Shown piece by piece: positions 38,301 through 40,492 of a DNA stretch of 64,000 nt; position 1 is the first letter of the stretch, and each line of letters starts with the position of its first letter. The notes below the pieces were generated by a model. That model was not told the origin of the DNA, made no database searches, and worked only from the letters and a program-made list of their open reading frames with translations. Where the stretch lies: assembly GCF_003018115.1 (NCBI RefSeq), contig NZ_CP027457.1; one strand, given 5' to 3'. Source of the DNA: Escherichia coli. Lineage in GTDB: Bacteria > Pseudomonadota > Gammaproteobacteria > Enterobacterales > Enterobacteriaceae. The position numbers were made by a program, and so were the translations under genes.

Positions 38301-39452
38301 ATGTCACTTGTCACCGATCTACCCGCCATTTTCGATCAGTTCTCTGAAGCTCGCCAGAAAGGCTTTCTCACCGTCATGGATCTCAAGGAGCGCGGCATTC
38401 CGCTGGTTGGCACTTACTGCACCTTTATGCCGCAAGAGATCCCGATGGCAGCCGGTGCGGTTGTGGTTTCGCTCTGTTCCACCTCTGATGAAACCATTGA
38501 AGAAGCGGAGAAAGATCTGCCGCGCAACCTCTGCCCGCTGATTAAAAGCAGCTACGGCTTTGGCAAAACCGATAAATGCCCCTACTTCTACTTTTCGGAT
38601 CTGGTGGTCGGTGAAACCACCTGCGACGGCAAAAAGAAAATGTATGAATACATGGCGGAGTTTAAGCCTGTTCATGTGATGCAGTTGCCGAACAGTGTTA
38701 AGGACGATGCCTCGCGTGCATTGTGGAAAGCCGAGATGCTGCGCTTACAAAAAACGGTAGAAGAACGTTTTGGGCACGAGATTAGCGAAGATGCTCTGCG
38801 CGATGCCATTGCGCTGAAAAACCGCGAACGTCGCGCACTGGCCAATTTTTATCATCTTGGGCAGTTAAATCCTCCGGCGCTTAGCGGCAGCGACATTCTG
38901 AAAGTGGTCTACGGCGCAACCTTCCGTTTTGACAAAGAAGCGTTGATCAATGAACTGGACGCGATGACCGCCCGCATTCGTCAGCAGTGGGAAGAAGGCC
39001 AGCGACTGGACCCGCGTCCGCGCATTTTAATCACCGGTTGCCCGATTGGCGGCGCAGCAGAGAAAGTGGTGCGCGCGATTGAAGAGAATGGCGGCTGGGT
39101 TGTCGGTTATGAAAACTGCACCGGGGCGAAAGCGACCGAGCAATGCGTGGCAGAAACGGGCGATGTCTACGACGCGCTGGCGGATAAATATCTGGCGATT
39201 GGCTGCTCCTGTGTTTCGCCGAACGATCAGCGCCTGAAAATGCTCAGCCAGATGGTGGAAGAATATCAGGTCGATGGCGTAGTTGATGTGATTTTGCAGG
39301 CGTGCCATACCTACGCGGTGGAATCGCTGGCGATTAAACGTCATGTGCGTCAGCAGCACAACATTCCTTATATCGCTATTGAAACAGACTACTCCACCTC
39401 GGATGTTGGGCAGCTCAGTACCCGTGTCGCGGCCTTTATTGAGATGCTGTAA
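38301..39452 (+). CDS. yjiM: 2-hydroxyacyl-CoA dehydratase-like protein (HgdB/component D family)
   Basis: Translation from MSLVTDLPAIFDQF... (383 aa); multiple conserved Cys; family assignment by recall. Confidence 0.8.
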   Translation: MSLVTDLPAIFDQFSEARQKGFLTVMDLKERGIPLVGTYCTFMPQEIPMAAGAVVVSLCSTSDETIEEAEKDLPRNLCPLIKSSYGFGKTDKCPYFYFSDLVVGETTCDGKKKMYEYMAEFKPVHVMQLPNSVKDDASRALWKAEMLRLQKTVEERFGHEISEDALRDAIALKNRERRALANFYHLGQLNPPALSGSDILKVVYGATFRFDKEALINELDAMTARIRQQWEEGQRLDPRPRILITGCPIGGAAEKVVRAIEENGGWVVGYENCTGAKATEQCVAETGDVYDALADKYLAIGCSCVSPNDQRLKMLSQMVEEYQVDGVVDVILQACHTYAVESLAIKRHVRQQHNIPYIAIETDYSTSDVGQLSTRVAAFIEML

Positions 39453-39461
39453 GGAGTAGCA

Positions 39462-40229
39462 GTGACATATTCGATTGGCATTGATTCTGGTTCTACCGCC
39501 ACCAAAGGGATCTTACTGGCAGACGGCGTGATTACGCGCCGTTTCCTCGTTCCAACCCCCTTTCGCCCGGCAACAGCAATTACTGAAGCCTGGGAAACTC
39601 TGCGCGAAGGGTTAGAGACATCGCCGTTTCTGACGCTCACCGGCTACGGGCGGCAACTGGTGGATTTTGCCGATAAACAAGTGACGGAAATCTCCTGTCA
39701 CGGGCTGGGCGCACGGTTTCTTGCGCCAGCAACGCGCGCGGTAATCGACATCGGTGGTCAGGACAGCAAAGTGATTCAGCTTGATGATGACGGTAACCTG
39801 TGCGATTTCCTGATGAATGACAAATGCGCGGCGGGCACCGGGCGTTTCCTGGAGGTGATCTCGCGCACACTTGGCACCAGCGTCGAGCAACTCGACAGCA
39901 TTACCGAAAATGTCACGCCGCACGCCATCACGAGTATGTGCACAGTGTTTGCTGAATCAGAAGTGATCAGCCTGCGCTCAGCGGGCGTCGCGCCAGAAGC
40001 GATTCTCGCCGGAGTGATTAACGCGATGGCGCGGCGGAGTGCCAATTTCATTGCTCGTCTCTCCTGTGAAGCGCCGATTCTGTTTACTGGTGGCGTTAGT
40101 CATTGCCAGACGTTTGCCCGGATGCTGGAATCTCACCTGCGAATGCCGGTAAATACCCATCCTGATGCGCAATTTGCTGGCGCAATTGGCGCGGCGGTAA
40201 TTGGTCAACGAGTGAGGACACGCCGATGA
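39462..40229 (+). CDS. yjiL: BadF/BadG/BcrA/BcrD-type ATPase, putative activase of 2-hydroxyacyl-CoA dehydratase
   Basis: 255-aa ORF, GTG start after GGAG; N-terminal IGIDSGSTATKG (ASKHA ATPase phosphate-1 motif). Confidence 0.8.
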   Translation: MTYSIGIDSGSTATKGILLADGVITRRFLVPTPFRPATAITEAWETLREGLETSPFLTLTGYGRQLVDFADKQVTEISCHGLGARFLAPATRAVIDIGGQDSKVIQLDDDGNLCDFLMNDKCAAGTGRFLEVISRTLGTSVEQLDSITENVTPHAITSMCTVFAESEVISLRSAGVAPEAILAGVINAMARRSANFIARLSCEAPILFTGGVSHCQTFARMLESHLRMPVNTHPDAQFAGAIGAAVIGQRVRTRR

Positions 40230-40492
40230 AAGAGTTTTTATTTTTATTTCACTCCACGGTCGGCGTGATACAAACCCGCAAGGCGTTGCAGGCAGCGGGC
40301 ATGACTTTTCGCGTCAGCGATATTCCCCGTGATTTACGCGGCGGCTGCGGGTTATGCATTTGGCTGACCTGTCCCCCCGGCGAGGAAATACAATGGGTGA
40401 TCCCAGGGCAGACCGAAGCGATATATTGCCAGCAGGGCAGCGACTGGCAGTGCGTGGTGCATTACGATGCAGAAGCGTCAACCAGGCAATAA
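40226..40492 (+). CDS. Small hypothetical protein translationally coupled to yjiL (possibly DUF3343-like)
   Basis: 88-aa ORF whose ATG overlaps the yjiL stop (ATGA); contains a GCGLC motif. Family assignment is tentative. Confidence 0.45.
   Translation: MKEFLFLFHSTVGVIQTRKALQAAGMTFRVSDIPRDLRGGCGLCIWLTCPPGEEIQWVIPGQTEAIYCQQGSDWQCVVHYDAEASTRQ

What the first reader, a model, noticed from the sequence alone, without database searches (positions are those of the whole stretch)
38301..40492. Orphan 2-hydroxyacyl-CoA dehydratase-like module yjiM-yjiL plus a coupled small ORF
yjiM (HgdB-like subunit), yjiL (BadF/BcrAD-type activase ATPase) and an 88-aa ORF overlapping the yjiL stop form a tight operon, with DUF445 yjiN 116 bp upstream. 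Classical radical dehydratases need two catalytic subunits plus the activase; only one dehydratase-like subunit is present here, so the substrate and even the reaction class are unclear. The module is conserved but unexplained.
Basis: inference. Interest (0 to 1): 0.4.

Follow-up and report, generated by a model that had tools for sequence, protein, structure and literature searches.

The report
E. coli double-cubane reductase operon yjiM-yjiL-ytiA
The three genes are the E. coli copy of a known ATP-driven iron-sulfur reductase whose single catalytic subunit works as a homodimer, plus a conserved one-cysteine carrier protein; in other bacteria these genes sit inside selenium-handling clusters, which gives a testable lead to a function that is still unknown.

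Summary
yjiM (38301-39452), yjiL (39462-40229) and an 88-codon ORF (40226-40492) are intact, co-oriented and packed: a 9-nt gap, then an ATGA overlap with its own Shine-Dalgarno.

The "orphan dehydratase with a missing partner" reading is out of date. YjiM scores 532 bits on NCBIfam NF040772, the double-cubane-cluster reductase model (cutoff 350). It matches DCCP 6ENO at E=5e-75 and keeps all seven motif cysteines. DCCPs are homodimers served by a homodimeric ATPase. YjiL has both [4Fe-4S] cysteines of that ATPase. A 2020 review already names YjiM as a putative DCCP.

The small ORF is the annotated gene ytiA (DUF3343, Pfam "Se/S carrier-like"). Its dN/dS is about 0.1, and it has one invariant cysteine in a GCG motif.

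New here:
- DUF3343 genes lie in 18 of 74 non-enterobacterial DCCP loci, 11 of them directly adjacent.
- Those loci are enriched for SclA-like selenocysteine lyase/cysteine desulfurase, YedF and SelD.
- Four loci reached from the DUF3343 side all read lyase-DCCP-DUF3343-ATPase.

Best reading: a known DCCP system with a chalcogen-carrier accessory, probably in selenium or sulfur trafficking. The substrate is unproven. Identity is already known; interest is moderate.

The parts
38301..39452 (+). yjiM: double-cubane-cluster protein (DCCP), the catalytic component; predicted homodimer with one [8Fe-9S] cluster per subunit
   Evidence: NF040772 equivalog 532 bits against a cutoff of 350. PDB 6ENO/7YYL DCCP at E=5.2e-75 over residues 26-383. 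C40, C59, C78, C108, C273, C302 and C335 are invariant or at least 90% conserved in 40 diverse DCCPs. They align with 6ENO C76, C95, C114, C144, C309, C341 and C374.
39462..40229 (+). yjiL: ATP-dependent reductase (DCCP-R or 'archerase' homolog), GTG start
   Evidence: TIGR00241 362 bits. PDB 7yyl_E DCCP-R at 8.6e-46, HadI at 2.2e-52, HgdC at 1.1e-51. C122 and C160 align with DCCP-R C115 and C152, which are the [4Fe-4S] ligands (PMC9351452).
40226..40492 (+). ytiA: DUF3343 / PF11823 'putative Se/S carrier-like' protein. 88 aa in this haplotype, 85 aa in most E. coli. Invariant Cys41 in the motif DIPRxLRGGCGLC.
   Evidence: Pfam 3.6e-13. Annotated ytiA in RefSeq. Alignments A1 and A3 show F8, C41 and G42 invariant and P34 at least 90% conserved. 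dN/dS is about 0.1. The AF2 model has pLDDT 87 and a ferredoxin-like fold.
40213..40229 (+). Translational-coupling junction: GAGGA Shine-Dalgarno, 7-nt spacer, then ATGA (ytiA start overlapping the yjiL stop)
   Evidence: Read directly from the sequence. The same 4-nt overlap is kept in five complete Enterobacterales loci (L008-L010, L005, L006); in Cedecea (L011) and Hafnia (L012) my ORF calls give 1- and 11-nt overlaps.
39450..39464 (+). yjiM stop, GGAG Shine-Dalgarno and yjiL GTG start (9-nt gap)
   Evidence: Read directly from the sequence.
38186..38300 (+). yjiN-yjiM spacer (115 nt). No promoter-like, terminator-like or FNR-box match was found in it.
   Evidence: The transcription unit boundaries are not resolved here.

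Best explanation
yjiM-yjiL-ytiA is the E. coli double-cubane-cluster protein system plus a dedicated cysteine carrier.

Shown by sequence:
- YjiM is a DCCP with the complete 7-Cys motif.
- YjiL is the cognate ATPase with both [4Fe-4S] ligands.
- YtiA is a conserved, translationally coupled DUF3343 protein with a single invariant Cys.

Inferred from the solved C. hydrogenoformans system: a YjiL homodimer, bridged by one [4Fe-4S] cluster, sits on the twofold axis of a YjiM homodimer. It uses ATP hydrolysis to push low-potential electrons into the two [8Fe-9S] clusters, where a substrate is reduced. No second catalytic subunit is needed.

Inferred from gene neighbourhoods found here: YtiA Cys41 carries a chalcogen atom, as a persulfide or perselenide received from a cysteine desulfurase or selenocysteine lyase. 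It presents this atom to the YjiM cluster, or receives it from there. The module therefore works in selenium or sulfur mobilisation.

The specific version I favour is reductive release of selenide for SelD.

My probabilities: DCCP identity and two-component mechanism about 0.9; YtiA as a functional partner about 0.7; a selenium or sulfur species as the physiological substrate about 0.4.
For: Identity:
- NF040772 at 532 against a cutoff of 350.
- 6ENO at E=5e-75.
- Seven conserved Cys.
- YjiL C122 and C160 equal DCCP-R C115 and C152.
- Activase-DCCP fusion proteins exist.
- The literature names YjiM as a putative DCCP and describes the homodimer and the ATP-driven electron transfer.

Coupling of YtiA:
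- ATGA overlap with its own Shine-Dalgarno.
- The order M-A-d is kept in 6 of 6 Enterobacterales loci and in Klebsiella.
- Purifying selection on ytiA.
- DUF3343 ORFs occur in 18 of 74 non-enterobacterial DCCP loci. Eleven lie within 153 bp of the DCCP or ATPase gene, in several different gene orders.
- Four loci reached from the DUF3343 side all read Aminotran_5 / HGD-D / Se_S_carrier / BcrAD_BadFG.

Selenium or sulfur link:
- DUF3343-positive DCCP loci are enriched for class-V aminotransferase (13 of 22 vs 5 of 58), YedF (9 of 22 vs 3 of 58) and SelD (4 of 22 vs 1 of 58).
- Those neighbours pass TIGR01977 (nearest characterised relative is selenocysteine lyase SclA), TIGR03527 YedF and TIGR00476 SelD.
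- In an Enterococcus locus the DCCP pair lies between XdhC and a selenium-dependent xanthine dehydrogenase, followed by SclA-like, SelD, YedF, DUF3343 and YqeC.
- Haft reported that 955 of 970 NF040772 proteins come from SelD-encoding genomes.
- Lin et al. proposed DUF3343 as a Se/S chaperone. Their STRING table links it to an 'activase' and an HgdB-like gene.
- yjiM is listed among FNR-activated genes.
Against: - No experiment on YjiM, YjiL or YtiA was found in the searchable literature.
- The in-vitro DCCP system of C. hydrogenoformans needs only DCCP and DCCP-R, and no carrier.
- 56 of 74 non-enterobacterial DCCP loci have no DUF3343 within about 8 kb, so the carrier is not obligatory. My DUF3343 HMM was self-trained and may miss divergent copies.
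- DUF3343 also occurs in selenium clusters without a DCCP. The E. faecalis selD cluster lists no DCCP gene.
- DUF3343 is also found in organisms lacking SelD.
- E. coli has no lyase, YedF or SelD gene next to the module.
- The DCCP review argues that YjiM, which lacks the channel-closing N-terminal helices, may take a CoA ester or another large substrate.
- Thiol systems can already reduce selenium species in E. coli, so the need for an ATP-driven step is not demonstrated.
Confidence: 0.5

Rival explanations
1. YjiM is a class II DCCP that reduces, or radically transforms, a larger organic substrate such as a CoA ester. This is what the DCCP discoverers suggested. YtiA would be a minor accessory unrelated to selenium or sulfur chemistry.
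For: YjiM lacks about 36 N-terminal residues that close the substrate channels in DCCP-Ch; the alignment starts at 6ENO residue 62, and the review makes this argument. The nearest non-DCCP relatives are HadC, BzdN and BcrC. Other DCCP loci lie beside corrinoid methyltransferase genes (URO-D, B12-binding, RACo) rather than selenium genes.
Against: No CoA-transferase, CoA-ligase or 2-hydroxyacid dehydrogenase gene lies nearby. The short, YjiM-like DCCPs of Firmicutes (53-58% identical: L033, L068, L080) sit directly in operons with SclA-like, DUF3343 and YedF genes. The corrinoid clusters have themselves been proposed to act on methyl-selenium compounds.
Confidence: 0.22
2. YtiA is a maturation factor rather than a substrate carrier. 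In Firmicutes it would act with the adjacent desulfurase. It would deliver the bridging sulfide, or as Haft raised as a formal possibility a selenide, that fuses two cubanes into the double-cubane cluster.
For: The arrangement desulfurase / small Cys carrier / Fe-S enzyme resembles dedicated cluster-assembly sets such as NifS with nitrogenase (established knowledge). The cassette lyase-DCCP-DUF3343-ATPase recurs. Haft lists a selenium-bridged cofactor as a formal possibility.
Against: DCCP-Ch made in E. coli carried an [8Fe-9S] cluster. This is weak evidence, because BL21 carries ytiA. Most DCCP loci lack an adjacent DUF3343. The presence of SelD, YedF, YqeC and a selenium-dependent XDH in the same clusters points to selenium supply for other enzymes.
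Confidence: 0.15
3. The genes act as one unit with mdtM and yjiN in transport of, or susceptibility to, proline-rich antimicrobial peptides (the 'yjiL-mdtM gene cluster').
For: mdtM, yjiN, yjiM, yjiL and ytiA all lie on the same strand with short gaps. The PrAMP literature refers to a yjiL-mdtM cluster and to 'MdtM/YjiL'.
Against: The effect is attributed to the MdtM transporter. The gene order of mdtM and yjiN differs in Klebsiella. DUF445 is absent from all 74 non-enterobacterial DCCP loci. The primary paper could not be read.
Confidence: 0.03
4. This is a classical 2-hydroxyacyl-CoA dehydratase whose second catalytic subunit is encoded elsewhere or has been lost.
For: Pfam HGD-D match and older 'dehydratase subunit' annotations.
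Against: Scores fall far below the HadB and HadC equivalog cutoffs, while the DCCP cutoff is passed. The 7-Cys motif is present, whereas the FldB/C-type subunits have a 3-Cys motif. There is no second HGD-D gene in the window.
Confidence: 0.02
5. The 88-aa ORF is a non-functional read-through ORF.
For: Its C-terminal third is variable, and it differs between E. coli haplotypes. In one strain the ORF is interrupted by a Mu-like element.
Against: It hits a Pfam family, shows dN/dS of about 0.1, has an invariant Cys motif, is conserved across genera, and recurs beside DCCP genes in Firmicutes.
Confidence: 0.02

Closest known systems
DCCP / DCCP-R of Carboxydothermus hydrogenoformans (CHY_0487/CHY_0488; PDB 6ENO, 7YYL)
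   Same: Same family (NF040772). All seven motif cysteines are present. The adjacent ATPase has the two [4Fe-4S] cysteines. The expected architecture is homodimer on homodimer, with ATP-driven low-potential electron transfer.
   Different: YjiM is about 36-38 residues shorter at the N-terminus; the review's class II lacks the channel-closing helices. The E. coli operon adds a translationally coupled DUF3343 gene. No activity has been measured for the E. coli proteins. The physiological substrate is unknown for both systems.
2-hydroxyacyl-CoA dehydratases (HgdAB/HgdC, HadBC/HadI, FldBC/FldI) and class I benzoyl-CoA reductases
   Same: Homologous catalytic fold (Pfam HGD-D). Homologous 'archerase' ATPase that injects one electron.
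   Different: Those enzymes are heterodimers of two different subunits with [4Fe-4S] clusters, and they act on CoA thioesters. YjiM is a single subunit type with a 7-Cys double-cubane motif, and it falls far below their equivalog cutoffs.
Selenium-utilisation gene clusters of Firmicutes (SelD, SclA selenocysteine lyase, YedF, DUF3343, YqeB/YqeC, selenium-dependent xanthine dehydrogenase)
   Same: YtiA belongs to the DUF3343 family found in these clusters. YjiM-like DCCP and ATPase pairs are embedded in them in Enterococcus, Peptoniphilaceae, Lachnospiraceae and others.
   Different: In E. coli only the DUF3343 gene travels with the DCCP pair; selD, yedF, csdA and sufS are elsewhere. No biochemical role is known for DUF3343 or for the DCCP in selenium metabolism.
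Nitrogenase Fe protein / MoFe protein and nitrogenase-like reductases
   Same: An ATP-hydrolysing homodimer bridged by one [4Fe-4S] cluster energises electrons for a large fused Fe-S cofactor. DCCP reduces acetylene, hydrazine and azide in vitro.
   Different: The folds are unrelated: an ASKHA ATPase rather than a P-loop NifH, and an HGD-D fold rather than NifDK.

Membership tests
Double-cubane-cluster protein (DCCP, NCBIfam NF040772) | Score above the curated equivalog cutoff | tested here: met
   532.3 bits against a cutoff of 350, full-length match 14-383.
Double-cubane-cluster protein (DCCP, NCBIfam NF040772) | Seven-cysteine motif (six cluster ligands plus one nearby Cys) | tested here: met
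   C40, C59, C78, C108, C273, C302 and C335 are invariant or at least 90% conserved in 40 diverse DCCPs. They align with 6ENO C76, C95, C114, C144, C309, C341 and C374. The spacings differ by a few residues from the motif printed in the review.
Double-cubane-cluster protein (DCCP, NCBIfam NF040772) | Adjacent gene for an ATP-dependent reductase (DCCP-R) with two [4Fe-4S] cysteines | tested here: met
   yjiL starts 9 nt downstream. It matches 7yyl_E at 8.6e-46, and C122 and C160 align with C115 and C152.
Double-cubane-cluster protein (DCCP, NCBIfam NF040772) | Homodimer carrying an [8Fe-9S] cluster, reduced only by the partner plus MgATP | not testable with these tools
   Needs anaerobic purification, spectroscopy and a structure. 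Known only for the C. hydrogenoformans protein.
Classical 2-hydroxyacyl-CoA dehydratase (HgdAB / HadBC / FldBC) | Two different catalytic subunits encoded together | tested here: not met
   Only one HGD-D-type gene lies in the 64-kb window and in the annotated neighbourhood.
Classical 2-hydroxyacyl-CoA dehydratase (HgdAB / HadBC / FldBC) | Score above the equivalog cutoffs for a dehydratase subunit | tested here: not met
   HadC 95.6 against 700; HadB 20.4 against 750.
Classical 2-hydroxyacyl-CoA dehydratase (HgdAB / HadBC / FldBC) | Pathway context (CoA-transferase, 2-hydroxyacid dehydrogenase) | tested here: not met
   The neighbours are mdtM, yjiN, a pentapeptide-repeat gene, an SdiA-regulated-domain gene and yjiJ.
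Acyl-CoA dehydratase activase / BcrAD_BadFG ATPase (TIGR00241, PF01869) | Family score and the two cluster-bridging cysteines | tested here: met
   TIGR00241 at 362 bits against 125; PF01869 at 258 bits. C122 and C160 are conserved against HadI, HgdC, MbdQ and DCCP-R.
DUF3343 / PF11823 'putative Se/S carrier protein-like' | Pfam gathering score, size of 80-100 aa, single highly conserved Cys | tested here: met
   49.2 bits against 25; 88 aa; C41 invariant in 35 sequences from Enterobacterales and Firmicutes. Lin et al. describe the conserved Cys.
DUF3343 / PF11823 'putative Se/S carrier protein-like' | Actual binding or transfer of S or Se | not testable with these tools
   The family name rests on comparative genomics only. 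There is no solved structure. The AF2 model gives only generic ferredoxin-like or PII-like matches.

The most novel reading that the evidence does not exclude
YjiM/YjiL/YtiA would be an ATP-driven chalcogen reductase. YtiA Cys41 receives selenium as a perselenide from a selenocysteine lyase or cysteine desulfurase (CsdA, SufS or IscS in E. coli; the adjacent SclA-like enzyme in Firmicutes). The double-cubane cluster then reduces it to free selenide for SelD.

This would give DCCPs their long-missing physiological role. It would also identify an enzymatic route for selenide supply to selenophosphate synthetase, and it could be tested in E. coli. A variant is that the same machinery inserts selenium or sulfur into the cofactor of selenium-dependent molybdenum hydroxylases.
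Probability: 0.25. Interest if true: 0.75.

Novelty: already known. Interest (0 to 1): 0.38.

Why it matters
The physiological substrate of double-cubane-cluster proteins is unknown, even though their cofactor resembles nitrogenase clusters. How selenide reaches SelD inside cells is also unsettled.

E. coli carries the minimal version of the system: reductase, ATPase and carrier. It also has selD, well-assayed selenoproteins (the formate dehydrogenases) and full genetics. The neighbourhood pattern shown here therefore turns a vague statistical link between DCCPs and selenium into a concrete three-gene knockout and in-vitro experiment.

If the selenium lead fails, the finding is an ordinary, correctly annotated operon of unknown substrate.

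Tried and rejected
- FNR box search (TTGATnnnnATCAA, up to 2 mismatches). Nothing in the yjiN-yjiM spacer. The nearest match, at 38087-38100, lies inside yjiN, and the total count is no higher than in shuffles.
- Promoter and terminator scans gave nothing in or around the operon above chance.
- Rfam at a permissive threshold found no RNA family in 35000-43500.
- PDB sequence search of YtiA gave only noise.
- Single-sequence homology searches of YtiA and YjiM listed only Enterobacteriaceae among the best 120 hits. The exhaustive representative search and an alignment-based genome scan were needed to reach further.
- I tried to see the context of long DCCPs close to the crystallised protein. Both lookups landed on contigs under 4 kb and were uninformative.
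- I looked for DUF3343 fused to DCCP or ATPase proteins and found none.
- The printed 7-Cys regular expression from the review did not match YjiM literally. Alignment showed that the cysteines are all present with slightly different spacing.
- The primary paper on the yjiL-mdtM cluster is not held.
- I could not retrieve a citable value for the Se(0)/HSe- potential, so I make no quantitative thermodynamic argument.
- I did not run the costly metagenome scan for an unbiased DUF3343 sample. The reverse conditional, the fraction of DUF3343 genes next to a DCCP, therefore remains unmeasured.
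Full report
**1. What is in the sequence**

The window is Escherichia coli chromosome. Positions 36500-42000 are 100% identical to strain F8111-1SC3, and the region is matched in 5386 of 5426 complete E. coli genomes.

On the + strand lie five co-oriented genes:
- mdtM, 35623-36864.
- yjiN, 36905-38185 (DUF445).
- yjiM, 38301-39452 (383 aa).
- yjiL, 39462-40229 (255 aa, GTG start).
- An 88-codon ORF, 40226-40492.

- yjiM ends TAA, followed by GGAG and the yjiL GTG after a 9-nt gap.
- The small ORF's ATG overlaps the yjiL TGA as ATGA, with GAGGA 7 nt upstream.
- The yjiN-yjiM spacer is 115 nt.

Neither the consensus scans nor Rfam found a promoter, terminator or RNA element of note. 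A tblastn of YjiM against the whole window finds no second HgdA/B-type gene.

**2. What YjiM and YjiL are**

Pfam places YjiM in HGD-D and YjiL in BcrAD_BadFG. The curated NCBIfam models are more specific:

| Model | YjiM score (bits) | Cutoff (bits) |
|---|---|---|
| NF040772, double-cubane-cluster-containing anaerobic reductase | 532 | 350 |
| HadC (dehydratase subunit) | 96 | 700 |
| HadB (dehydratase subunit) | 20 | 750 |

Against solved structures the best match is the double-cubane cluster protein (DCCP) of Carboxydothermus hydrogenoformans. The entries are 6ENO and 7YYL, at E=5.2e-75 over residues 26-383. BzdN, MbdN and HadC lie 55 or more orders of magnitude behind.

An exhaustive search of 1.8 billion representative proteins found 378 relatives at E of 1e-30 or better. 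In an alignment of 40 diverse full-length ones (31-49% identity to YjiM), exactly seven cysteines are invariant or at least 90% conserved: C40, C59, C78, C108, C273, C302 and C335. They align with 6ENO C76, C95, C114, C144, C309, C341 and C374.

This is the 7-Cys motif that defines the family. Six of these cysteines ligate the [8Fe-9S] cluster (PMC7317905). The literal spacing pattern printed in the review did not match YjiM, but the aligned residues are all present.

YjiL matches the DCCP reductase (7yyl_E, 8.6e-46) and the activators HadI and HgdC. Its C122 and C160 align with DCCP-R C115 and C152, the residues that hold the dimer-bridging [4Fe-4S] cluster (PMC9351452). Natural ATPase-DCCP fusion proteins exist.

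**3.

The characterised DCCP is a homodimer. Its reductase is a homodimer that docks on the twofold axis and, on ATP hydrolysis, reduces both double-cubane clusters. A single catalytic gene is therefore the normal state for this family, and no partner is missing.

The 2020 review names E. coli YjiM explicitly as a putative "class II" DCCP. [quoted passage not shown] RefSeq annotates it as a double-cubane reductase.

The reaction class is known: ATP-driven, very low-potential substrate reduction at a fused Fe-S cluster. The physiological substrate is not known, either here or for any DCCP.

yjiN is not part of the conserved unit.
- It lies upstream in 4 of 6 Enterobacterales loci.
- In Klebsiella it is separated from yjiM by an MFS gene and a DUF2164 gene.
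- It is absent from all 74 non-enterobacterial DCCP loci.

**4. The small ORF**

It is the annotated gene ytiA. It hits Pfam PF11823 (Se_S_carrier, formerly DUF3343) at 3.6e-13.

Orthologs of 54-79% identity occur in Citrobacter, Klebsiella, Raoultella, Kosakonia, Atlantibacter and Phytobacter. The first 45 residues are strongly conserved, with an invariant DIPRxLRGGCGLC motif. The last 40 residues are variable.

Nei-Gojobori dN/dS for codons 1-70 is 0.07-0.18. This is comparable to yjiL (0.05-0.19) and somewhat above yjiM (0.03-0.05).

The AlphaFold model is confident (pLDDT 87) and has a ferredoxin-like beta-alpha-beta-beta-alpha-beta-beta fold. It has no specific relative among solved structures. 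Across 35 sequences from Enterobacterales and Firmicutes only F8, C41 and G42 are invariant.

ytiA is a real, selected protein-coding gene.

**5. Is the association with the DCCP pair more than local synteny?**

A scan of one genome per species returned 80 DCCP loci: 6 Enterobacterales and 74 others. The others are mostly Clostridia, with Enterococcus, Listeria and a few further groups, at 49-66% identity to YjiM.

I called ORFs in these loci and searched them with YjiL and with an iterated DUF3343 profile.
- The ATPase is present in 54 of 80 loci.
- DUF3343 is present in all 6 Enterobacterales loci, always in the order DCCP-ATPase-DUF3343.
- DUF3343 is present in 18 of the 74 other loci (21 ORFs).
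- Eleven of those ORFs lie within 153 bp of the DCCP or ATPase gene.
- The gene orders vary: DCCP-d-ATPase, d-ATPase-DCCP, d-DCCP-ATPase.

Within these loci the DUF3343 ORFs cluster next to the core genes more than a uniform placement would give (11 of 21 against 23% expected, p=0.003).

Four further loci were reached from the DUF3343 side. All show the same four-gene cassette: class-V aminotransferase, DCCP of about 424 aa, DUF3343 and ATPase. Those four came from a profile trained on DCCP-linked DUF3343s and are therefore a biased sample.

**6. What else travels with it**

Clustering the neighbours showed three families concentrated in the DUF3343-positive DCCP loci:

| Neighbour family | DUF3343-positive loci | DUF3343-negative loci |
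|---|---|---|
| Class-V aminotransferase | 13 of 22 | 5 of 58 |
| TusA+DsrE fusion | 9 of 22 | 3 of 58 |
| AIR-synthase-like protein | 4 of 22 | 1 of 58 |

NCBIfam identifies them as follows:
- The aminotransferase is TIGR01977 (458 bits against a cutoff of 377). The nearest characterised model is selenocysteine lyase SclA (384 bits, below its cutoff of 525).
- The TusA+DsrE fusion is the selenium metabolism protein YedF (TIGR03527).
- The AIR-synthase-like protein is SelD (TIGR00476).

Short, YjiM-like DCCPs sit directly in such operons:
- L068: SclA-like, DUF3343, ATPase and DCCP with overlapping genes, divergent from a SelD-YedF-DUF3343-SclA-like operon.
- L080: DCCP, ATPase, SclA-like, DUF3343, YedF.
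- L033: DUF3343, SclA-like, YedF, ATPase, DCCP.

In an Enterococcus locus (L022) the order is XdhC, DCCP, ATPase, selenium-dependent xanthine dehydrogenase (TIGR03311, 1550 bits), SclA-like, SelD, YedF, DUF3343 and YqeC.

Other DCCP loci lie beside corrinoid methyltransferase genes. A 2023 preprint proposes that these genes demethylate methyl-selenium compounds.

**7. How this fits the literature**

- Haft reported that 955 of 970 NF040772 proteins come from SelD-encoding genomes. He did not mention DUF3343, YedF or desulfurases.
- Lin et al. proposed DUF3343 as a Se/S chaperone. Their STRING table lists an "activase" and an HgdB-like gene among its partners, without comment.
- Kountz and Balskus call the DCCP "provisionally linked to selenium metabolism".
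- The E. faecalis selD cluster lists no DCCP gene. A hypothetical protein, EF2565, sits in the position where DUF3343 would be, but I did not verify its family.

The selenium link is therefore a published hypothesis. What I add is direct, repeated adjacency of the DUF3343 carrier to the DCCP and ATPase genes, including the closest non-enterobacterial relatives of YjiM.

For E. coli itself I found no functional study. I found only a listing of yjiM among FNR-activated genes, a structure-based Fe-S prediction, and mentions of a "yjiL-mdtM gene cluster" in peptide-antibiotic uptake. That effect is attributed to MdtM.

**8. Most likely mechanism, and what is shown versus inferred**

Shown by sequence:
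- A DCCP with all cluster ligands.
- Its ATPase with both cluster ligands.
- A coupled single-cysteine DUF3343 protein under purifying selection.

Inferred by homology to the solved system: YjiL2, bridged by a [4Fe-4S] cluster, binds YjiM2 and uses ATP hydrolysis to deliver low-potential electrons to two [8Fe-9S] clusters.

Inferred from gene context: YtiA Cys41 carries a sulfur or selenium atom obtained from a desulfurase or lyase, and exchanges it with the YjiM active site.

The version I favour is reductive release of selenide for SelD. It has been argued that selenium from selenocysteine lyases reaches SelD at the Se(0) level. This comes from my own knowledge of the Stadtman and Esaki literature and was not checked here.

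My estimates: 0.9 for the DCCP identity and mechanism, 0.7 for YtiA as a functional partner, and 0.4 for a selenium or sulfur substrate.

Rivals, set out in full in the rival explanations:
- An organic or CoA-ester substrate, with YtiA incidental (0.22).
- YtiA as a cluster-maturation factor (0.15).
- A transport role together with MdtM (0.03).
- A classical dehydratase with a missing partner (0.02).
- A spurious ORF (0.02).

**9. Verdict**

The "orphan, partner-less dehydratase" interpretation is superseded by the DCCP literature and by current annotation. The identity of all three genes is already known, and the physiological function is not.

The comparative result gives a specific experiment in E. 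coli that could settle what DCCPs do. On that basis I score interest at 0.38. For the most novel reading I give a probability of 0.25 and an interest of 0.75 if true.

Noticed in passing
window 40600-43000 (gene 40805-42907): A 700-aa pentapeptide-repeat protein gene lies in a low-GC island (30-39% GC, against about 52% in the flanks) between ytiA and the SdiA-regulated-domain gene. Only about 12% of complete E. coli genomes (633-639 of 5426) carry this arrangement. In the others yjiK follows ytiA directly.
   Followed up: partly
window 40436-40492 (ytiA codons 71-88): The C-terminal tail of YtiA differs between the island-bearing haplotype (88 aa, ...GSDWQCVVHYDAEASTRQ) and the common one (85 aa, ...DGVWRCIAHYGVSPR). 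Both keep YCQQ..W.C..HY, so this is a diverged allele rather than a truncation.
   Followed up: partly
L002 vs L003 (E. coli BL21 vs strain 3045), yjiM/yjiL/ytiA: Mosaic ancestry inside the operon. The yjiM genes are identical (dS=0), but yjiL has dS 0.14 and ytiA dS 0.2 between the same two strains. About 1800 genomes are only 80-90% identical to the window across the yjiL 3' end and ytiA. This suggests a recombination boundary near the yjiM-yjiL junction.
   Followed up: partly
L004 2660-5171 (E. coli STEC306): ytiA is interrupted after about codon 14 by an element encoding two HTH proteins and a Mu-type transposase. It is a natural ytiA knockout strain.
   Followed up: no
P0271, P0242, P0266/P0282/P0335/P0366 (proteins): Unusual DCCP fusions. 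P0271 has a roughly 220-aa N-terminal extension packed with CC dipeptides, which looks like a metal- or chalcogen-binding region. P0242 (722 aa) joins a YjiM-like DCCP to a PucR-type HTH. Four proteins fuse the ATPase to the DCCP, in either order.
   Followed up: partly
L022 6906-17089 (Enterococcus sp. DIV0212c): The DCCP and ATPase pair is embedded in a complete selenium-dependent molybdenum hydroxylase cluster: XdhC, selenium-dependent XDH, SclA-like, SelD, YedF, DUF3343 and YqeC.
   Followed up: partly
window about 34230-35165 (L001 732-1666): A frameshifted Rpn-family recombination-promoting nuclease pseudogene lies on the opposite strand, upstream of mdtM.
   Followed up: no
window 45475-50715 (NZ_CP024269.1 3402994-3408234): A 5.2-kb inverse autotransporter gene (iatD) lies between kptA and yjiJ. 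It is absent from the BL21 arrangement, where kptA follows yjiJ directly. The wider region is the hsd/mrr/symE restriction cluster.
   Followed up: no
window 38087-38100: TTTATTCGTGTCAA, a 2-mismatch match to the FNR consensus, lies inside the 3' end of yjiN about 200 bp upstream of the yjiM start. Such matches are no more frequent in the window than in shuffled sequence.
   Followed up: partly
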